Of a stretch of 28,308 nucleotides of DNA, positions 95-28,308 are shown in pieces. The stretch lies in the IMG/VR virus record IMGVR_UViG_3300045988_152359, one strand, 5' to 3'. Positions within the stretch are counted from its first letter, which is position 1; every line of letters starts with the position of its first letter. Both the position numbers and the translations under genes were made by a program. The notes below the pieces were generated by a model. That model had not been told where the DNA came from and searched no databases. It saw only the letters and a list, made by a program, of their open reading frames with translations. The stretch comes from a virus. Its lineage: Duplodnaviria; Heunggongvirae; Uroviricota; Caudoviricetes.

Positions 95-1177
95 TTAGAA
101 CTGGTAAACCATACCTACAGCAACGATATCATCGGTAGCAACGCCAGATGCTTTCGTGAAATCGCTCTTATCAATCAGGTTGATTTTGTAATCAACAAAA
201 GTGGACATATTTTTGTTGAAGTAATAGGTTGCACCTACATCAATATATTCAACCAGGTCCTGATCACCCCACGCACCCAAGTCTTTTCCTTTAGATTGCA
301 GGTAAGCAACGGACGGACGCAGACCGAAGTCGAACTGATATTGTGCAACTACTTCGAAGTTTTGTGCTTTGTTGGCAATATGGTTATTACCAAAAACAGT
401 CATGTTCTGGGTTTCAGAATAGGTGGTAGCCAGATAGATGTTGTTCGCATCATATTTCAGACCAGCTGCCCATACTTCAGCATTTTGACCAGATGCATTC
501 AGGCTGTTGTTACCGTAGATAACCTGATTATTAGTGCGGTCAGATTTAGCATAGGTTGCACCTACACCGAATCCTTCATACTCATAAGTAGTGGAGAAAC
601 CGAAACCATCACCATTAGCTTCAGTTACGTCAGTGCGGTCATTTTTACCCTGATACTGAGCAGCAAAGTTCAGACCATCAACCAGACCAAAGAAGTCGTT
701 GTTACGATAGGTTGCAACACCAGTGGTACGACCAGTCATGAACACATCTGTTTGGGTCCAGGTATCGCCACCGAATTCTGGCAGAACGTCAGTCCACGCA
801 CCGATGTCGTATGCTACACCGTAGTTACGGCCGTAATCGATTGAGCCGTAGTCACCGAATTTCAGGCCTGCAAATGCAAGACGGGTTTTGTCTTTGGAGG
901 AACCTTGAGATTCAGCGCGGTTGCCTTTGAATTCATATTCCCACTGACCGAAACCAGTCAGCTGATCGTTGATTTGGGTTTCACCTTTGAAGCCAAGACG
1001 GGCATAAGTAGTATCACCATCATCTGCATCATTAGAGGAGAAGTAGTGCTTAGCATTAACTTTCCCGTACAGATCCAGCTTGTTACTGTCTTTATTATAA
1101 ATTTCAGCTGCCTGAGCAGACATCGCCATCAGTACTGATGCAGCTACAGCAGAAATTGCCACTGTTAATTTTTTCAT
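95..1177 (-). CDS. nmpC: Outer-membrane general porin, OmpC/OmpF/PhoE superfamily (prophage-encoded NmpC/Lc-like)
   Basis: 360-aa ORF with signal peptide [25 protein letters not shown], porin N-terminal motif [13 protein letters not shown] and C-terminal aromatic end VGMVYQF. Lies immediately upstream of the lysis cassette on the opposite strand, as nmpC does in DLP12. Symbol by analogy, not verified. Confidence 0.85.
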
Positions 1178-3491: not shown

Positions 3492-3713
3492 GTTGAACCT
3501 CCTTAATTAATGTTATTCGAGTGAGGAAGGCATTCTGTCCTTCTATAGTGTCCAGTAAATCAAACAGGAAACCTGTCCAACGTGTTGGACAAGCCTCTCC
3601 ATTAGTGAGTTGTATTGATCACAACTCTACAAAGAATTCATGACTGCGTAGATGAAAATAGTTTCACGATGAATGGAGGAGGCTATGTCGGTGGCTTCTT
3701 CATTGGAGTACAT

Positions 3714-4064
3714 ATGCCATCACGAATCCCAAAAGCCTGCCGCGTTCGCGGCTGCCGTAATACCACTACAGACCCGTCAGGCTACTGCGAAAGCCACAAA
3801 AACGAAGGCTGGAAACAATACAAGCCGGGGCAATCCCGTCATCAGCGCGGCTACGGTTCGAAGTGGGACAGTATCCGCGCGCGCATATTGAAGCGTGACA
3901 AAGGCCTGTGTCAGTTATGTCTGCGTGCTGGTGTGGTGCGTGAGGCGAAAACCGTTGACCACATCATCCCTAAAGCGCATGGCGGCACCGATGCAGACAG
4001 TAATCTGCAGAGCCTGTGCTGGCCGTGCCATAAGGCGAAGACGGCCCGTGAACGGCTAAAGTGA
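3714..4064 (+). CDS. HNH endonuclease (terminase-associated)
   Basis: C-terminal HNH motif ...CQLCLRAGVVREAKTVDHIIPKAHGGTDADSNLQSLCWPCHKAK; ATG at 3714 has a GGAG RBS. The ORF track starts at 3615, but that extension lacks an RBS. Confidence 0.8.
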   Translation: MPSRIPKACRVRGCRNTTTDPSGYCESHKNEGWKQYKPGQSRHQRGYGSKWDSIRARILKRDKGLCQLCLRAGVVREAKTVDHIIPKAHGGTDADSNLQSLCWPCHKAKTARERLK

Positions 4065-21786: not shown

Positions 21787-22230
21787 ATGAACTCAGTATT
21801 CTTTTCACCCGGAAGTAAAAGTTTTTATCTGCAGGAATTGTTTCCAGAATATGAGGATGCGGGAACGCTTCCTGATGATGTTATTGAAATTACAAGAGAA
21901 ACATATGAGCAATTTCTTGGGCTGCATCCAGAAGGGAAAGAAATTGGCGCTGACAGTTCAGGACGGCCAGTATGGATTAATTCCCCACCCCCTTCAAAAG
22001 AGGATGAGGTGTTGACGGCTGAAATGAAAAAAATATCTTTGGTTTCTGAAGTCAATACCTACATCAATACTCATCAGTGGCCTGGCAAAGCGGCGATTGG
22101 TCGTCTGAAAAGTGAGGAACTGGCGCAATATAATTTGTGGCTGGATTATCTGGACGCACTGGAACTGGTTGATACCTCCAGTGCGCCAGATATTGAATGG
22201 CCTACGCCTCCGGCAGTTCAGGCCAGATGA
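21787..22230 (+). CDS. Tail fibre assembly protein (Tfa), currently expressed orientation
   Basis: 147 aa directly after the tail fibre gene, inside the invertible segment. Confidence 0.8.
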   Translation: MNSVFFSPGSKSFYLQELFPEYEDAGTLPDDVIEITRETYEQFLGLHPEGKEIGADSSGRPVWINSPPPSKEDEVLTAEMKKISLVSEVNTYINTHQWPGKAAIGRLKSEELAQYNLWLDYLDALELVDTSSAPDIEWPTPPAVQAR

Positions 22231-22804
22231 CATCCGGCGCGGTGCTGGTATCTGTTGCCGTCACCGCGTCAATGTAATCCAGCACAGCGTTAAGTCGGGT
22301 GTTTTCTGTCTGCGTCAGCTTCCGCCCGGCCTGTAATTTCAGTTGAATCAGACTGATGGAAGCCATTGCAGCATCAATCAGCGACTGGCGCTGTGCTTCT
22401 GCCGCTTCTACTGCGGCGCTATGCTGTGCCTCAGTATCGGTCACCCATTTCTCACCATCCCATTTATCGTATGGCGTTAACGGTGCGAGAGTGGTTGTAT
22501 TTTCGGGATAGTCGCCTGGTGCTGTGATTTCTTTAGCATCTCCCGTTTCGGTGTTATAGACAATTTCACCGCGATGGTCTGGCACATATTCCCATGAGTT
22601 AAAATCTGCAGAACGGCAGATTGCATAACCAGTTTTGTATGAGCCAGGAGCATCTAAACAGGAACATGCCGGAATGCCGACACCCACAGCAAGATATTCA
22701 GTTGATGTGAAAATATATTCCCGTGTTTCACCATCATAGTTATAAACCGTAATATTTCCTGCCTGGGTGGCGATAAATTCGTTATTTAATACATCGTAAT
22801 CCAT
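22202..22804 (-). CDS. Alternative tail fibre assembly protein (Tfa'), silent orientation
   Basis: 200 aa on the opposite strand, convergent with and slightly overlapping the plus-strand tfa; paired with the alternative fibre C-terminus. Confidence 0.8.
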   Translation of the reverse strand: MDYDVLNNEFIATQAGNITVYNYDGETREYIFTSTEYLAVGVGIPACSCLDAPGSYKTGYAICRSADFNSWEYVPDHRGEIVYNTETGDAKEITAPGDYPENTTTLAPLTPYDKWDGEKWVTDTEAQHSAAVEAAEAQRQSLIDAAMASISLIQLKLQAGRKLTQTENTRLNAVLDYIDAVTATDTSTAPDVIWPELPEA

Positions 22805-23304
22805 TATGCAGCCCTCACGATATAATTAAAGGCAATGTTACGAGGACGGTTTTCGTTTGCAGTTGGAACAACTCTGGAAGCATCAAATGTTACTCGCTTT
22901 GCATAACCACCTTTAATTGAATCAGATGAAGTATCTCCGATGACGCTGGTTGTAAAAACGCCAGAGTCAGAAGGATAGGTATTAAACCTGACATCTACTA
23001 ATGCACCAATTATATTTCGAATGGTATCTCCCTGTGACGAAAGCAAGCTACGGTTAGTATCAATCCCTCTTCCATCATCCCAGCCACGAATAAACTCACC
23101 GCGTAAATCAGGCAATTTATTTGTCGGGTAAACCTTTGCCAGTTCCGGGTATTCTTCAGCAGAAAAAGCCGCTCCGTTGCATTTCAGCCAGCCTGTTGGC
23201 GGAGTGGCGGAAGGCCACGGAACAGGCACGCCAACGGGTAATGCCGAACCTTCTCCCAAACCAACGTTTATGAAAATGCAGAAATAACGAGCAGATGACA
23301 TCAT
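22804..23304 (-). CDS. Alternative tail fibre C-terminal segment (promoter-less; fused to the constant part after inversion)
   Basis: Contains the tail-fibre motif LPDLRGEFIRGWDDGRG and the in-frame site-encoded VGLGEGS; the reading frame matches the constant part across the crossover site. The part beyond 23264 lies outside the invertible segment. Confidence 0.75.
   Translation of the reverse strand: MMSSARYFCIFINVGLGEGSALPVGVPVPWPSATPPTGWLKCNGAAFSAEEYPELAKVYPTNKLPDLRGEFIRGWDDGRGIDTNRSLLSSQGDTIRNIIGALVDVRFNTYPSDSGVFTTSVIGDTSSDSIKGGYAKRVTFDASRVVPTANENRPRNIAFNYIVRAA
23251..23276. repeat. Right recombination (crossover) site of the Pin-type invertible segment
   Basis: TTCTCCCAAACC-AA-CGTTTATGAAAA; central dinucleotide AA is the complement of TT at the left site; about 55 bp upstream of the invertase start. 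Confidence 0.75.
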
Positions 23305-23330
23305 TCCTGCTTTTGTCAGGGAGATCTACC

Positions 23331-23885
23331 ATGCTTATTGGCTATGTACGTGTGTCAACAAATGACCAGAACACAGATCTACAACGTAATGCGCTGAACT
23401 GTGCAGGATGCGAGCTGATTTTTGAAGACAAGATAAGCGGTACAAAGTCCGAAAGGCCGGGACTGAAAAAACTGCTCAGGACATTATCGGCAGGTGACAC
23501 TCTGGTTGTCTGGAAGCTGGATCGGCTGGGGCGTAGTATGCGGCATCTGGTCATTCTGGTTGAGGAGTTGCGCGAACGTGGCGTTAATTTTCGCAGCCTG
23601 ACGGATGCTATTGATACCAGCACACCGATGGGGCGTTTTTTCTTTCATGTGATGGGGGCCCTGGCTGAAATGGAACGAGAACTGATTGTTGAACGAACAA
23701 AAGCTGGACTGGAGGCTGCTCGCGCACAGGGACGAATTGGTGGACGTCGTCCCAAACTTACACCAGAACAATGGGCGCAGGCCGGGCGATTAATTGCATC
23801 AGGCGTTCCTCGCCAGAAGGTGGCGATCATCTATGATGTTGGTATATCGACACTGTATAAGAAGTTTCCGGTCGGAGATAAATGA
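23331..23885 (+). CDS. pin: Serine DNA invertase (Pin/Gin/Cin/Hin family)
   Basis: 184 aa from ATG 23331: MLIGYVRVSTNDQNTDLQ... (catalytic Ser in VRVSTNDQ) and C-terminal HTH GRRPKLTPEQWAQAGRLIASGVPRQKVAIIYDVGISTLYKKF; the ORF-track start at 23295 is an extension. Confidence 0.95.
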   Translation: MLIGYVRVSTNDQNTDLQRNALNCAGCELIFEDKISGTKSERPGLKKLLRTLSAGDTLVVWKLDRLGRSMRHLVILVEELRERGVNFRSLTDAIDTSTPMGRFFFHVMGALAEMERELIVERTKAGLEAARAQGRIGGRRPKLTPEQWAQAGRLIASGVPRQKVAIIYDVGISTLYKKFPVGDK

Positions 23886-23942: not shown

Positions 23943-24812
<870 letters not shown>

Positions 24813-24891
24813 CTAAGCCTTTGAATTTACAAGTACAAAAAAGATACTTTTCCTCATAATGTGAATTAATTTTATGTTTCGTTTGATGATT

Positions 24892-24957
24892 GGACCGGTC
24901 TCGAAAACCGGAGTAGGGGCAACTCTACCGGGGGGGCAAATCCCCCTCTCTCCGCCA
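24892..24957 (+). pseudogene. 3' two-thirds of tRNA-Ser(CGA), 66 nt - probable prophage attachment-site remnant
   Basis: GGACCGGTCTCGAAAACCGGAGTAGGGGCAACTCTACCGGGGGGGCAAATCCCCCTCTCTCCGCCA: anticodon loop with CGA, long class-II variable arm, T-arm, acceptor 3' strand and CCA. No 5' acceptor strand or D-arm upstream. T-loop reads GGCAAAT instead of canonical TTCAAAT. Confidence 0.8.
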
Positions 24958-25540
24958 CTTTATCAATGACTTATCTCCCGACTTCCCGCCTTGCTTTTCC
25001 TAAACAGAACAATCGTAGAATATTCTTGAAGGGTTAGATCGTCACTGTTTTCTGTTCGATACTGTGACATTCAGCACTTGATTCGCTATGGATCTGACAG
25101 GAAGGTTTCGAGCGAAAATCTGCAGTTATTCAGTCGTTTTCTTATCGGTCACCATTATTCTTTTAGACATTGATCCTACAAAGCTGCCGCAAAGTTGGTG
25201 GTGGGAACTGAAGTTGCGTAGAGAAGGGGTCAATACCCGGAGGCAAACATGGGCTGGCAAAAGTGTAGCGGTATTAGGCGCAGCTATTTAGCCTAGTTAT
25301 GTTTTATGAAAACTTGATATCATATAAGTGTCTTACTTATTGGCTGTAAATAAGGTTTTCTAAGGAATTGTTTCTTTAGTATCATTTGTAACTGTAACGG
25401 AATTTATAATCCTTTACTTTATTTTTACGGTATTTTTTATCACACCCTATTTTTTATGTGGTTTTTTATACTGAAGTTTGGCAAAGTGAACTTTATATGC
25501 ATATACTTCATCCTGGTTTCAGTTAAATTGGGTGGATGAT

Positions 25541-26284
25541 ATGGCAACTACATGTTCAGTTATATTGATTTTGGAGTCCTTTGATGTTTATTTCGGAAAA
25601 GAGAGTGTGTTTCTGGATAGAGGTTTATCTGTACTTGTCGACTCTAGCTATAGAGATTTTTTCCTGACATATCCTGAAAGAGTGATAGTGGCGGATTTTG
25701 GCGCTGAGTTTATTAGTCGCTATTTGAAAGCTAATAACTTAAGGGATATTTCTGATTGTAGGGAATATCCATCTTATTTAAAAATAAACTTTGCTGACTT
25801 CAGTTTAATTAAAGGATTAATTAGTTGGGCTAATCACTGTGCTGAATATATAGAAATTTTTGATGAGTCTATTGCTTTTACATGTCTCTCTGCATTTTCT
25901 TCTGAAAAACAATTTGGAGTATTTCTGTTTGGATGTTTGAAAAGCACAGGGGCTAAAGTTAAAACGATTATTCATACGGATTTATCTGCACCATGGCATC
26001 TTAAGGATATATCATCAAGATTATATCTCAGCGAAAGTTTACTAAAGAGGAAATTGAAAGAAGAGGGGGTATCATTCAGTAAGATCATACTTGATGAGAG
26101 GATGCAAATGGCTGAATATTTACTCAGCACTCGTTGTTATCCTATTAGTAAAGTAGCTAAGGTCTGTGGTTATGCCAGTGTCTCATACTTTACTTATGTA
26201 TTTAGACGTTATTTTGGTGTTTCTCCAAGTCAATACTCTCAGAGGAGTTCAGAAAGTAAAATTCTTACTCACCAGGGAATCTAA
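25541..26284 (+). CDS. AraC/XylS-family transcriptional regulator (AppY/YdeO/GadX-like), AT-rich
   Basis: About 247 aa; C-terminal double-HTH WHLKDISSRLYLSESLLKRKLKEEGVSFSKIILDERMQMAEYLL...VAKVCGYASVSYFTYVFRRYFGVSPSQY; visibly AT-rich with a long AT-rich leader. Start taken as ATG 25541 (the track uses GTG 25532). Confidence 0.85.
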   Translation: MATTCSVILILESFDVYFGKESVFLDRGLSVLVDSSYRDFFLTYPERVIVADFGAEFISRYLKANNLRDISDCREYPSYLKINFADFSLIKGLISWANHCAEYIEIFDESIAFTCLSAFSSEKQFGVFLFGCLKSTGAKVKTIIHTDLSAPWHLKDISSRLYLSESLLKRKLKEEGVSFSKIILDERMQMAEYLLSTRCYPISKVAKVCGYASVSYFTYVFRRYFGVSPSQYSQRSSESKILTHQGI

Positions 26285-26290
26285 TCATTG

Positions 26291-26553
26291 TTCTTGCCCC
26301 CTTATTTCCAGACAGGGGGTGTATCTTAAGTTAACGTTACCCGCTGACGTCGATATTCTCGCGGAGAGCGATAACCCAACGCACTGTGCGGATGGTTTTC
26401 ATTGTAATGTTCGATCGCCACTGCAAGATTATGCAATGCCGTTCTTATATTCGGTTTCGGCATGAACGCGATGTAGTCTTCCTTCATCGTTTTCACGAAC
26501 CTTTCTGCCATTCCATTACTCTGAGGACTGCTGATTACCCATGAGGAGTACAA
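26291..26553 (-). mobile_element. IS2-like (IS3-family) insertion sequence remnant: terminal repeat plus 3' end of the transposase gene, truncated
   Basis: Terminal sequence TTGCCCCCTTATTTCCAGACA at 26294-26314 resembles the IS2 inverted repeat; minus-strand ORF 26326..26553 encodes the transposase C-terminus; similarity ends abruptly near 26553. Confidence 0.65.
26326..26553 (-). pseudogene. IS3-family transposase (OrfB/InsD-like), C-terminal fragment
   Basis: 75-aa ORF ...[56 protein letters not shown]...; lacks the upstream catalytic (DDE) region. Confidence 0.7.
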
Positions 26554-26773
26554 TTAAACGGGTTAATCAGTTTCTCCATTTGAAAGAAAAAAGACTTCTG
26601 TACTGTTTGATATCACCGCTATTTTCTTATTTTCTGTGCAGGTCGTAGTGGGACAAAACTGAGACACATAAGGCCTCACAATGGCTTGCAAGGCTTTACA
26701 TGTTTTGATGTGGTGGGACGTGTGAGCGCAGTGTTGATGGGGTAATACTTTGAATTAGAAGCGGATTCTTATG

Positions 26774-26819
26774 ATTCGTAATGCGAAGGTCGTAGGTTCG
26801 ACTCCTATTATCGGCACCA
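26774..26819 (+). pseudogene. 3' 46 nt of tRNA-Thr(CGU) - second attachment-site remnant
   Basis: ATTCGTAATGCGAAGGTCGTAGGTTCGACTCCTATTATCGGCACCA: anticodon loop (CGT) through T-arm, acceptor 3' strand and CCA; no 5' half upstream. Confidence 0.75.
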
Positions 26820-27426
26820 TCAAGAAAATCAATAACTTAGCTTAACTTCTCTAAGAAATTGTATCTTCTGTTATCACTTACAAACGCCTATACGTTGTTA
26901 TGGGCTTTGGTAGTGTAACACGTATGGGCGAGTAGTTCCCAGGCTCAACCTCGTAACAAGTTCCTTTGAAGCTGGAAGACGTGCCACCGTCTCTAAACCT
27001 TCTACCAAAACTCTTAGCAAGATGTTCCACACCTGGCGCGGTGTCCAATGATGCTACACGTCGAGATGACGTCGCAGAGGATAAACAGGCTAAATGATGG
27101 GAAGAGTTTTAAGTGCAATAGTGGATTAAAGCCCACCTCTTCAAAACCTAACTTGATCGGGAAAGAATCAAGCTCTAGCACGGTTTCGTCCACCGGAGTA
27201 CAACGGGTGCCTGATAAGAGAAGAACTGCTAAGACTTCATAGCTTTTGTGAAAAAGCCCTTTTTAGTGGATATGCCTACGGCGCTTATTTTTTGGTATAA
27301 CCATCAAAGGCGCTTTATGGCTCCTATTGTCTTGAAAATGTATCTTTACTTGTATTGTGTTTTATGCGTAGTCTCCCTGTGTAGTATGTAACTTGTTAAT
27401 TTTCATATGAATACAGAGGCAACACG

Positions 27427-27537
27427 ATGAAAAACATTGCAGCTATAAAACGTAATAACCGCAAGATTCACGCTCGTAAGTTCCTGTCTACGCCAGAGGG
27501 AAAAGCCTGTCTACGCCAGAGGGAAAAGCCTGGCTAG
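27427..27537 (+). CDS. Small ORF (35 aa as read) disrupted by a 23-bp tandem duplication; inferred ancestral product about 50 aa, basic
   Basis: GAGG RBS 7 nt before ATG 27427; MKNIAAIKRNNRKIHARKFLSTPEGKA...; removing one repeat copy restores ...WLERKQRENEERKLLSELKWLKD, ending at 27602; an imperfect long hairpin and a T-tract follow. Confidence 0.4.
   Translation: MKNIAAIKRNNRKIHARKFLSTPEGKACLRQREKPG
27484..27529 (+). repeat. Perfect 23-bp direct tandem duplication (2 copies)
   Basis: CTGTCTACGCCAGAGGGAAAAGC at 27484-27506 and again at 27507-27529. Confidence 0.95.
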
Positions 27538-27885
27538 AGCGTAAACAGCGAGAGAACGAAGAAAGAAAACTCCTTAGTGAGTTGAAATGGCTTAAGGATT
27601 GAATCACCAGTAGGCGCATAACACATCCAGCAATCAAAGATGTGTTTGTGCGCCTGATAGTGAAATTATTAAAGTTTTTTAGTTAATGTAGCCATTGCAT
27701 GAACGATGATCGCTAGTGAATCGATTTTATCTCGAGGGGTAAAATAGATGAGGTATATGATGGTAACAATTACAGCTAAAGTAATTGTGGTTCTGCAGGT
27801 TTTTAAAATGGATAAGATAAAGCGCATAGATACCCCCTATTGATTTAACAACAACAAGGTATCATTTATTTTTTATTGCATGCAA

Positions 27886-27907
27886 TGTGCAAATTTTCAC
27901 ATATAAT
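27886..27907 (+). promoter_or_regulatory. CRP-like site (TGTGC-N6-TCACA) abutting a consensus -10 hexamer (TATAAT)
   Basis: TGTGCAAATTTTCACA at 27886-27901, then TATAAT at 27902-27907; no obvious downstream gene on the plus strand. Confidence 0.25.
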
Positions 27908-28152
27908 AGCTTACTATTCACTTTGCATGGTGTCAACAAGATGATGTGTTGTTTTGTTTGATTTGTTCAAGATAATATTTCATTTTCTCATCTGTATAAC
28001 TTGTGTTTTAGATAATTTCACTAATTGTAAAAGTTACGTATTGCTTAATAGCTGCCTTTTTATCTGAAATCGGCGCAAACGTGATCAATGTTTAACGCGA
28101 AGATCAGCGGCGTCAGGTCCACGCAGCGACAATTCTCAAATATCAGGAGGAA

Positions 28153-28308
28153 TTACGCTTCCTGCTCTTTCTTGATACGTTGCACCGTCTGTGTGCTGAC
28201 ACTGAAATCTTTTGCTACGCTCCGAATTGATCCACCATTCGCGAGAGCGGCAACAATTCCCGCTCGATCAATTGCTTTTCCATTACCACGTTTTGCTATA
28301 CGTCCAGC
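28153..28308 (-). CDS. Serine recombinase (resolvase/invertase family), C-terminal HTH end; partial - the gene continues beyond the window
   Basis: 52 in-frame codons to a TAA at 28153-28155: ...GRIAKRGNGKAIDRAGIVAALANGGSIRSVAKDFSVSTQTVQRIKKEQEA, matching the G-R-x-x-K plus HTH pattern of resolvase C-terminal domains. Confidence 0.5.
   Translation of the reverse strand, partial: AGRIAKRGNGKAIDRAGIVAALANGGSIRSVAKDFSVSTQTVQRIKKEQEA

What the first reader, a model, noticed from the sequence alone, without database searches (positions are those of the whole stretch)
24892..24957. Prophage boundary marked by a tRNA-Ser(CGA) 3' fragment with a non-canonical T-loop
A 66-nt stretch is colinear with the 3' two-thirds of a class-II tRNA-Ser: anticodon arm with CGA, long variable arm, T-arm, acceptor 3' strand and CCA. 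No 5' acceptor strand or D-arm precedes it, so it is not a gene but the typical duplicated att core left by an integrase targeting a tRNA 3' end. It places the right prophage end about 175 bp beyond the GIY-YIG gene. The T-loop reads GGCAAAT instead of TTCAAAT, so this copy is probably the phage-derived or decayed arm rather than a functional tRNA part.
Basis: seen in the sequence. Interest (0 to 1): 0.5.

Follow-up and report, generated by a model that had tools for sequence, protein, structure and literature searches.

The report
Fossil tRNA-Ser attachment site inside prophage
The tRNA-Ser piece is real, but it is a dead leftover of an older phage integration site, carried with 278 bases of captured host DNA inside a prophage whose true right end is a tRNA-Thr fragment 1.86 kb further on.

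Summary
Observation confirmed. Window 24892-24957 is the last 66 nt of E. coli serU, tRNA-Ser(CGA), 64/66 identical, with T-loop TT changed to GG at 24935-24936. No complete tRNA is called.

Interpretation only partly right. It is an attR-type junction of a serU-targeting phage: strain MB15 carries the same phage arm at the native serU locus. It is not the end of this prophage.

- The next 278 bp (24958-25235) are the native serU-yodB spacer.
- That spacer breaks off into the last ~55 bp of an IS630-family element (25236-25290).
- An AraC-family regulator gene and a transposase relic follow.
- A perfect 46-nt tRNA-Thr (thrW) 3' fragment lies at 26774-26819. Its left arm, joined to the thrW-side arm and integrase of a closely related genome, rebuilds the attP of Shigella phages SfI/SfII/SfIV/SfV at 98-99%.
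- That related genome has intact thrW and this integrase at the other prophage end, not serU.

The block from the serU fragment to the transposase relic also sits in three free phage genomes: ev099, mEp332 and PhiR70_1. It is therefore phage-borne passenger DNA. Most likely it is a fossil of an imprecise excision from serU, followed by a swap of the integration module.

The GG T-loop is neutral decay: relic copies carry TT, GT, GG and a one-G deletion. Ordinary phage genome archaeology; modest interest.

The parts
23943..24716 (-). LEM-3-like GIY-YIG gene, the last gene of the late/right arm shared with serU-integrated prophages
   Evidence: Pfam PF22945 hit. RefSeq annotation in L001, L004 and L007. 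98.5% identical to the MB15 prophage at native serU.
24717..24891 (+). Phage-side (P) arm of a serU-type attachment site, 'type 1'
   Evidence: Nearly identical to the DNA between the GIY-YIG gene and the attR core in MB15 at the native serU locus. A different 'type 2' arm occupies this position in ev099, mEp332 and the SerU-LTIIb prophage.
24892..24959 (+). Fossil serU att core: the 3' 66 nt of tRNA-Ser(CGA) plus CT. This is the 68-bp block shared by attL and attR in MB15. T-loop TT->GG at 24935-24936.
   Evidence: No tRNA called.
24960..25235 (+). Captured host DNA: the start of the native serU-yodB intergenic spacer (278 bp counted from 24958)
   Evidence: Matches the DNA right after serU in about 5405 of 5426 E. 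coli genomes, best 99.6%. Aligned to K-12 and MB15. The native spacer continues for about 290 bp more to yodB.
25236..25290 (+). Last ~55 bp (right inverted-repeat end plus TA) of an IS630-family insertion sequence. This is the breakpoint that ends the serU-derived DNA.
   Evidence: Matches the 3' end and right terminus of an annotated IS630-family element on plasmid NZ_AP045065.1. Terminal inverted repeat identified. No genome or viral contig has the rest of the IS here.
25541..26284 (+). AraC-family transcriptional regulator, cargo gene; probably patE of O157:H7 (not verified by sequence)
   Evidence: Pfam HTH_AraC and HTH_18. Annotated AraC in L001, L004, L005 and in phage ev099. patE = z0321 on OI-8 (PMC10877973). 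Its position in O157 genomes at about 0.33 Mb is consistent. No source names it PatE.
26326..26539 (-). Transposase relic ('integrase core domain'; called InsD/transposase in the phage records). Right limit of the block shared with the free phages.
   Evidence: Annotation in L001, L009 and PhiR70_1. Homology to ev099 and mEp332 ends at 26539.
26649..26773 (+). P arm of the SfV/P22-type (thrW) attachment site
   Evidence: Contiguous 98-99% match of the reconstructed attP to Shigella phages SfIV, SfI, SfV and SfII, starting at window 26649.
26774..26819 (+). True attR core of the resident prophage: a perfect copy of the 3' 46 nt of thrW, tRNA-Thr(CGT), from the anticodon loop to CCA
   Evidence: Intact thrW plus integrase at the other end in NZ_CP148334.1. 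The DNA to the right abuts intact thrW in other genomes, with matches starting at window 26774.
26820..28308 (.). Start of an older thrW-associated island, outside the prophage
   Evidence: In 8 listed genomes this DNA lies directly downstream of intact tRNA-Thr, followed by a hypothetical gene and a recombinase-family gene.

Best explanation
The 66-nt tRNA-Ser(CGA) piece is an inert molecular fossil. It is the attR junction (phage arm - core - bacterial flank) of a temperate phage that once sat in serU. It is preserved with the first 278 bp of the serU-yodB spacer as passenger DNA in the cargo slot between the tail-fibre/pin/GIY-YIG genes and the phage's present attachment site.

The resident prophage is an SfV-like lambdoid with a contractile tail. 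It uses an SfV/P22-type integrase and is inserted in thrW. Its real right end is the thrW 46-nt repeat at 26774-26819.

Shown:
1. The fragment and the next 278 bp are native serU-locus DNA.
2. The same phage arm occurs as a genuine attR at native serU.
3. The host-derived stretch stops at a truncated IS630-family end, then an AraC regulator gene and a transposase relic.
4. The whole block is carried by free, viable phages with other attachment modules (a lambda attP core in ev099).
5. The thrW-type attP can be rebuilt across the prophage ends.

Inferred:
1. The block arose once. The serU-flank/IS630 junction is the same, SNPs aside, in every viral contig checked and in the aligned genomes.
2. 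It arose when a serU-integrated prophage left the chromosome by an illegitimate event. One break lay 278 bp outside attR and the other lay in an IS630 copy in the cargo region next to its own integrase side, as in a lambda-bio type transducing phage.
3. This separated the core from its integrase-side arm. The lineage later acquired thrW-type or lambda-type int/att modules by recombination.
4. The fragment itself does nothing now; it persists by linkage to the AraC gene.
5. Its T-loop GG is neutral decay at a G-run hotspot (TT -> GT -> GG).
For: - Identity to serU and its spacer.
- Native-locus counterpart (MB15): mtfA-serU-cargo-int ... pinE-GIY-YIG-fragment-yodB, homologous to the window from 3714 to 25235.
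- Opposite end of the closest complete genome is thrW plus integrase.
- thrW 46-nt repeat at 26774-26819.
- The reconstructed attP equals the attP/int of SfIV, SfI, SfV and SfII at 98-99% across the junction; the SfI and SfII records annotate attP there.
- DNA right of 26819 abuts intact thrW in other genomes.
- Block 24896-26539 is 98.4-98.8% identical in free phages ev099, mEp332 and PhiR70_1, between tail-fibre assembly genes and, in ev099, the integrase. ev099 has the lambda attP core GCTTTTTTATACTAA next to int/xis.
- Genuine serU phages (Chris1, KpF5) have the integrase 65-110 bp after the core, with no host spacer.
- IS630-family end identified.
- The same junction is in all 34 IMG/VR contigs that carry the IS end; none has an intact IS. 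In 5,426 complete E. coli genomes no AraC copy has an intact IS630 beside it.
- Decay series TT/GT/GG/one-G deletion, with GT arising on two different flank haplotypes. The exact GG form scores >=99% in 126 of 432 records carrying the type-1 junction.
Against: - The window does not contain the left prophage end. thrW plus integrase is inferred from a related genome that is only about 97.5% identical in the structural genes and differs left of window 2402.
- The ancestral state (an intact IS630 next to the AraC gene, or a serU-type integrase next to this block) was not found in any collection. The imprecise-excision origin therefore remains an inference.
- The similarity between the DNA after the IS end and a serU-phage integrase-side arm is only an 11-mer (E = 0.12).
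- Several different phage arms are joined to the same junction, and matching left arms occur at both loci. The relic has therefore taken part in later recombination, so 'inert' applies to tRNA and att function, not necessarily to homology-driven exchange.
Confidence: 0.8

Rival explanations
1. One reading: the fragment is the current attR of this prophage, which sits in serU with an intact serU and a serU-type integrase at the other end.
For: The fragment has the exact form of a serU attR, and the same arm is a true attR in MB15 and RMDEC332. The 278 bp to its right are native serU flank.
Against: The flank stops after 278 bp at an IS630 end and never reaches yodB. The locus lies between thrW/proA and yagU/ecp, not between mtfA and yodB. 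The other end is thrW with an SfV-type integrase. A perfect thrW repeat with an SfV-type P arm lies 1.86 kb to the right. The block is internal to free phage genomes.
Confidence: 0.03
2. Same fossil, different origin. The serU attR and flank were moved into a thrW-type phage by homologous recombination or chromosomal rearrangement, not by imprecise excision. One crossover lay in shared late genes between a serU prophage and a thrW prophage, and the other lay between two IS630 copies. A deletion inside the IS followed, and free phages inherited the block afterwards.
For: The breakpoint lies exactly at an IS630-family element. The serU-type and thrW-type prophages share about 21 kb of late genes. 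Identical left arms occur at both loci: JML285 at thrW versus E-ge-1 at native serU, 99.6% over 5.6 kb ending with the 278-bp flank, and the GIY-YIG arm in the window versus MB15. This shows that such exchanges do happen.
Against: No genome has an IS630 copy in the native serU-yodB spacer at that point or an intact one next to the AraC gene. It needs an extra deletion running from the IS left terminus to 55 bp before its right end. The native serU locus appears to remain in carriers (a second matching place per record), so a simple reciprocal inversion is not enough.
Confidence: 0.3
3. The relic is still used. It would serve as a secondary attachment site for serU-type integrases, or as a 344-bp portable homology to the chromosome, letting phages swap whole late-gene arms onto the AraC cargo and its attachment module.
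For: At least four different phage arms are joined to the one serU-flank/IS630 junction, with the switch at the 5' edge of the core. The same arm variants are found at native serU and at the relic.
Against: The pattern is equally explained by ordinary RecA recombination anywhere in the 344 bp. The test for site-specific exchange failed: the GT T-loop allele found with two arm types sits on different flank haplotypes, so it arose twice. No tandem product (core followed by a serU-type integrase at the thrW locus) was seen. Copies accumulate mutations in the core.
Confidence: 0.15
4. The fragment is expressed as a functional tRNA-derived RNA, for example a decoy for an anticodon nuclease or a regulatory fragment.
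For: It keeps an intact anticodon stem-loop and variable arm.
Against: It has no 5' half, no tRNA call and no promoter-like site upstream on the + strand. The T-loop and the 5' edge vary freely among copies, with TT/GT/GG/deletion and several arm variants, at about the same rate as the adjacent spacer.
Confidence: 0.02

Closest known systems
attR junctions of serU-integrating prophages of E. coli (MB15-type prophage; SerU-LTIIb prophage KU052038; Sp14 of O157:H7 Sakai at serU, per PMC8190617)
   Same: The same 62-68-bp identity block covers the anticodon arm to the 3' end of tRNA-Ser(CGA). The same phage-side arm as MB15. The same first 278 bp of bacterial flank.
   Different: Here the junction is not at the serU locus. 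The flank is cut after 278 bp by an IS630 end, no serU or serU-type integrase lies at the other end, and the junction is inside a prophage that uses another site.
attP/attR of thrW-integrating phages P22, SfI, SfII, SfIV, SfV and SfX
   Same: Window 26649-26819 together with the thrW-side arm and integrase is 98-99% identical to the SfI/SfII/SfIV/SfV attP-int region and about 79% to P22. The 46-nt core runs from the anticodon loop to CCA of thrW.
   Different: This applies to the thrW fragment, not to the serU fragment under review. From my own knowledge, the cargo slot next to attP holds O-antigen glucosylation (gtr) genes in the Sf phages; here it holds pin, GIY-YIG, the serU fossil and an AraC gene.
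Specialized transducing phages of the lambda gal/bio type (imprecise excision that captures DNA flanking the prophage)
   Same: Host DNA contiguous with an att core lies inside a viable phage genome, with a novel joint to phage-side DNA.
   Different: The captured piece is only 278 bp of non-coding spacer and the joint is in an IS remnant. The event is ancient and fixed in many lineages. The phage has since changed integration module. The excision event itself is inferred, not observed.
Pseudo-tRNA att relics in cryptic prophages, e.g. ptwF at the end of CP4-6 in E. coli K-12 (from memory, not tested here)
   Same: A non-functional 3' tRNA fragment left by integrase-mediated insertion.
   Different: Those relics lie at the locus of the tRNA they copy and mark an element boundary. 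This one copies a tRNA from about 1.8 Mb away and marks no current boundary.

Membership tests
Functional tRNA-Ser gene | Complete cloverleaf (acceptor 5' strand, D-arm) detectable by tRNA finders | tested here: not met
   ARAGORN finds 0 genes in the window. Rfam finds nothing at gathering score and only a 21.5-bit sub-threshold hit with permissive settings. The upstream 24 nt are unrelated to serU.
Functional tRNA-Ser gene | Canonical T-loop (T54-Psi55-C56) | tested here: not met
   GGCAAAT instead of TTCAAAT at 24935-24936.
attR (phage arm - core - bacterial flank) of a serU-targeting tyrosine-integrase phage | Identity block with the 3' part of serU, bounded on the left by phage DNA | tested here: met
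   68-bp block at 24892-24959. The left arm is nearly identical to that of the MB15 prophage at native serU.
attR (phage arm - core - bacterial flank) of a serU-targeting tyrosine-integrase phage | Native bacterial flank (towards yodB) on the right | tested here: inconclusive
   Native for 278 bp only, then a truncated IS630 end and an AraC gene. yodB is never reached.
attR (phage arm - core - bacterial flank) of a serU-targeting tyrosine-integrase phage | Matching attL (intact serU plus cognate integrase) at the opposite end of the same prophage | tested here: not met
   In NZ_CP148334.1 the opposite end is thrW plus an SfV-type integrase. The left end is not in the window itself.
Current attR of a thrW (P22/SfV-type) prophage; applies to 26774-26819 | Direct repeat of the thrW 3' 46 nt, with a P arm that is contiguous with the integrase-side arm in free phage attP | tested here: met
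   Perfect 46-nt copy. The reconstructed attP matches SfIV/SfI/SfV/SfII at 98-99% across the junction.
Current attR of a thrW (P22/SfV-type) prophage; applies to 26774-26819 | Excision regenerates attP and attB | not testable with these tools
   Needs induction and junction PCR or long reads.
Phage-borne host DNA from imprecise excision (specialized-transduction type) | Host chromosomal DNA adjoining an att core, present inside packaged phage genomes | tested here: met
   Block 24896-26539 is in ev099, mEp332 and PhiR70_1 at 98.4-98.8%. Its first 340 bp are serU-locus DNA.
Phage-borne host DNA from imprecise excision (specialized-transduction type) | Novel joint created by illegitimate recombination between the flank and the prophage interior, with loss of the DNA in between | tested here: inconclusive
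   A single joint, the same apart from SNPs, is present wherever it was checked. No pre-event state was found. The evidence that the DNA beyond the IS end is a former integrase-side arm is an 11-mer only.

The most novel reading that the evidence does not exclude
The captured serU core with 278 bp of host flank may not be merely dead. It may act as a portable recombination anchor: a secondary att site for serU-type integrases, or a patch of chromosomal homology. Unrelated temperate phages (contractile-tailed SfV-like, lambda-like) could repeatedly swap whole late-gene arms through it, and so pass the AraC (patE-like) cargo between phages that integrate at serU, thrW and attB-lambda.
Probability: 0.15. 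Interest if true: 0.5.

Novelty: new member of a known kind. Interest (0 to 1): 0.3.

Why it matters
- **Boundary calling.** A tRNA 3' fragment next to phage genes is not proof of a prophage boundary. Ending the prophage at the serU fragment would cut off 1.9 kb that includes a regulator gene (probably the acid-resistance/LEE regulator PatE of O157:H7), and would assign the wrong integration site (serU instead of thrW).
- **Phage evolution.** It is a datable footprint showing that this phage lineage once lived in serU, captured flanking host DNA, and then changed integration specificity. The footprint now travels in both SfV-like and lambda-like phages and is present in roughly 10% of complete E. 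coli genomes (536 of 5,426).
- **Limits.** It does not open a new mechanism.

Tried and rejected
1. My first search for a thrW repeat gave zero matches, and I briefly concluded that the thrW attR had been lost. This was a false negative. I searched the related locus L001, whose copy has a 1-nt deletion, with an ungapped pattern. A k-mer scan found the perfect copy in the window.
2. I assumed the window was identical to NZ_CP148334.1 because 24400-25500 matched 100%. It is not: identity is 97.5% in the late genes, and the DNA differs left of 2402 and right of 26820.
3. I searched for the ancestral state, an intact IS630 element next to the AraC gene. There is none in 5,426 E. coli genomes, none in IMG/VR and none in the GTDB species representatives.
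4. I tested whether the DNA right of the IS end is a former serU-phage integrase-side arm. Only an 11-nt identity (CTAGTTATGTT) to the MB15 arm at a similar offset turned up, E = 0.12. I kept this as speculation only.
5. I tested for integrase-mediated rather than homologous arm exchange, using the GT T-loop allele shared by a type-1 and a type-2 arm. The two copies sit on different flank haplotypes, so the allele arose twice and is uninformative.
6. A lambda-core-like string (TTTTTTATACT) upstream of the AraC gene is only an 11-mer in AT-rich DNA, so I dismissed it as chance.
7. No source names the AraC protein PatE, and the original PatE paper is not held.
8. Literature searches found no description of this serU relic at thrW.

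Full report
**1.

Window 24892-24957 reads GGACCGGTCTCGAAAACCGGAGTAGGGGCAACTCTACCGGGGGGGCAAATCCCCCTCTCTCCGCCA. Aligned to a K-12-type serU locus (L003: mtfA - serU - 569-bp spacer - yodB), it equals linear nt 25-90 of the 90-nt tRNA-Ser(CGA) gene. There are two differences, TT->GG at 24935-24936 in the T-loop. The 24 nt upstream are unrelated to the 5' part of the tRNA.

- ARAGORN calls no tRNA anywhere in the window.
- Rfam finds nothing at gathering score.
- With permissive settings there is only a sub-threshold tRNA-Sec-model hit (21.5 bits against a gathering score of 47) and an antisense hit to a plastid trnS-derived family.

**2. It has the anatomy of a serU attR**

The 278 bp after the CCA (24958-25235) match the DNA immediately downstream of serU in about 5405 of 5426 complete E. 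coli genomes, at about 97% and at best 99.6%.

I built a chimeric query from the window arm, the fragment and the K-12 spacer through yodB. It found strains MB15 and RMDEC332 with 100% coverage. In MB15 the order is mtfA - intact serU - three cargo genes - tyrosine integrase ... HNH - terminase ... pinE - GIY-YIG - fragment - yodB. That prophage is homologous to the window from 3714 (the HNH gene) to 25235.

MB15's attL and attR share the 68-bp block GGACCGG...CCGCCACT, which is window 24892-24959.

**3. But it is not at serU and not at the end of this prophage**

The genomes that contain the junction carry it between proA-thrW and yagU-ecp, not between mtfA and yodB.

- In NZ_CP148334.1, 100% identical over 24400-25500, the other prophage end is intact thrW, tRNA-Thr(CGT), followed directly by a site-specific integrase.
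- The serU-derived DNA stops at 25235. Positions 25236-25290 are the last ~55 bp, including the right inverted repeat and TA, of an IS630-family element.
- Next come an AraC-family regulator gene (25541-26284) and a transposase relic (26326-26539).

My first search for a thrW repeat was negative. That was an artefact: I searched the related locus L001, whose copy has a 1-nt deletion, without allowing gaps. A k-mer scan found a perfect 46-nt copy of the thrW 3' end in the window (ATTCGTAATGCG...GGCACCA, 26774-26819).

I then joined window 26400-26819 to the DNA that follows thrW in NZ_CP148334.1. The result matches the attP-int region of the free Shigella phages SfIV, SfI, SfV and SfII over its last 679 bp (from window 26649) at 98-99%, across the junction. 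It matches P22 at about 79%. The SfI and SfII records annotate attP there.

The DNA to the right of 26819 is an island that abuts intact thrW in other genomes, and the matches begin exactly at window 26774. The resident prophage is therefore an SfV-like phage in thrW whose right end is 26819/26820. The serU fragment lies 1.86 kb inside it.

**4. The block is phage-borne**

Free phage genomes ev099 (Radostvirus), mEp332 and PhiR70_1 carry window 24896-26539 at 98.4-98.8%. That span covers the serU core, the 278-bp spacer, the IS630 end, the AraC gene and the transposase relic. It lies after the tail-fibre assembly genes and, in ev099, before the integrase.

ev099 has the lambda attP core GCTTTTTTATACTAA next to lambda-like int/xis, so the serU core is not its attachment site.

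Genuine serU phages (Citrobacter phage Chris1, Klebsiella phage KpF5) have the integrase 65-110 bp after the core and no host spacer.

In IMG/VR, all 34 contigs that carry the IS end next to the AraC flank also carry the serU-flank/IS630 junction, apart from SNPs, and none has an intact IS. No intact IS630 lies next to the AraC gene in 5,426 E. coli genomes, and the GTDB representatives have no hit. The junction therefore looks like a single historical event.

**5. Most likely history (inferred)**

A serU-integrated phage of the MB15 type left the chromosome by an illegitimate event. One break lay 278 bp beyond attR. The other lay inside an IS630 copy in the cargo slot between its core and integrase; MB15 has three cargo genes in that slot.

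The product would be: P arm - core - 278 bp - IS630 end - cargo (AraC). In this product the core is cut off from its integrase-side arm. Descendants then acquired other int/att modules: SfV/P22-type in the window, lambda-type in ev099.

The alternative is a transfer by homologous crossovers in shared late genes and in IS630 copies. I cannot exclude it and give it about 0.3. It needs an extra internal IS deletion, and no IS630 copy is seen at the native site.

**6. Later recombination at the relic**

At least four left-arm variants are joined to the same junction:

| Arm | Sequence at the core edge | Examples |
|---|---|---|
| type 1 | GATGATTGGACC | window, MB15 |
| type 1c | GATGATCGGGTC | 6 IMG/VR contigs |
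| JML285 form | GATGAACGGGGC | JML285 |
| type 2 | CTCTGTATCATC | ev099, mEp332, native SerU-LTIIb attR |

JML285 (thrW locus) and E-ge-1 (native serU locus) are 99.6% identical over 5.6 kb that ends with the 278-bp flank. The 344-bp serU-derived patch has therefore mediated arm exchange with prophages at native serU.

Whether this is RecA- or integrase-driven is open. My one discriminating test failed: the GT allele found with two arm types sits on different flank haplotypes.

**7. The odd T-loop**

MB15's native attR, JML285, E-ge-1, ev099, mEp332 and SerU-LTIIb all have the canonical TT. Among relic copies I find TT, GT (twice, independently), GG (8 of 30 IMG/VR contigs, all type-1 arm) and a one-G deletion. 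The window's exact form scores >=99% in 126 of the 432 records with the type-1 junction.

This is stepwise extension of the G5 run at a mutational hotspot in a copy under no selection. It is not a signature of phage origin. The mechanism (misalignment at the run) is my inference.

**8. Comparison with known systems and verdict**

The closest known things are:
- serU attR junctions (MB15-type, SerU-LTIIb, and Sp14 of Sakai at serU per PMC8190617);
- the thrW attP of P22 and the Sf phages, for the real boundary;
- lambda gal/bio-type imprecise excision, for the origin;
- pseudo-tRNA relics such as ptwF (from memory).

O157:H7 carries the same block in its thrW prophage region (Sp1/Sp2 at thrW per PMC8190617). 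The AraC gene is probably patE (z0321, OI-8; PMC10877973), but I could not verify that by sequence.

It is a new example of a known kind of relic: useful for boundary calling and for reading phage history, but not surprising. Interest 0.3.

Noticed in passing
window 26774-26819 (+): Perfect 46-nt copy of the 3' end of thrW, tRNA-Thr(CGT), preceded by an SfV/P22-type P arm (26649-26773). This is the real right end of the prophage.
   Followed up: yes
window 25236-25290: Last ~55 bp, with the terminal inverted repeat, of an IS630-family insertion sequence. The rest of the element is missing in every genome and viral contig examined.
   Followed up: yes
window 25541-26284 (+): AraC-family regulator carried as phage cargo, present in about 536 E. 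coli genomes including O157:H7 and in three free phages. Its position in O157 fits patE (z0321, OI-8), a prophage-encoded activator of acid resistance. Identity was not verified by sequence.
   Followed up: partly
window 26326-26539 (-): Transposase relic ('integrase core domain', called InsD in a phage record). It is longer in O157:H7 and JML285 (435 nt against 210 nt). Homology with phages ev099 and mEp332 ends inside it.
   Followed up: partly
window 22078-23269, next to the pin gene at 23295-23885 (+): The tail-fibre C-terminal/assembly segment is inverted relative to the MB15 and O157:H7 prophages (minus-strand BLAST hits). It lies next to a resolvase-family DNA invertase (Pin), so this is an invertible host-range switch caught in the other orientation.
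   Followed up: partly
window 95-1177 (-): A 360-aa Gram-negative porin gene (Pfam Porin_1, E = 3e-153) inside the prophage, upstream of the lysis genes. It is a phage-encoded outer-membrane porin of the Lc/NmpC kind. This part of the window differs from the otherwise closest genome NZ_CP148334.1.
   Followed up: no
window 3615-4064 (+); homology break at 3714: An HNH endonuclease gene immediately upstream of a P27-family small terminase gene. The homology between the thrW-type prophage of the window and the serU-type prophage of MB15 begins exactly here, so this is a mosaic joint between the early/lysis and late modules.
   Followed up: partly
relic copies in L014-L043 (IMG/VR) and L001, L004, L005: T-loop allelic series at the G-run of the dead serU core: GGGGGTT, GGGGGGT (arose twice on different haplotypes), GGGGGGG and a one-G deletion. 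A small natural example of a homopolymer-adjacent substitution hotspot.
   Followed up: yes
L001 22376-22420 (NZ_CP148334.1): The thrW attR core of that strain has a 1-nt deletion (TATCGCACCA instead of TATCGGCACCA). This hid it from an ungapped pattern search, and it may impair excision of that strain's prophage.
   Followed up: partly
window 24903-24954 (-): Rfam hit (31.8 bits, below the gathering score of 68) to the plastid psbI-rps4 3'UTR family on the antisense strand. This probably reflects that family's overlap with a plastid tRNA-Ser gene. It is not a feature of the window.
   Followed up: no
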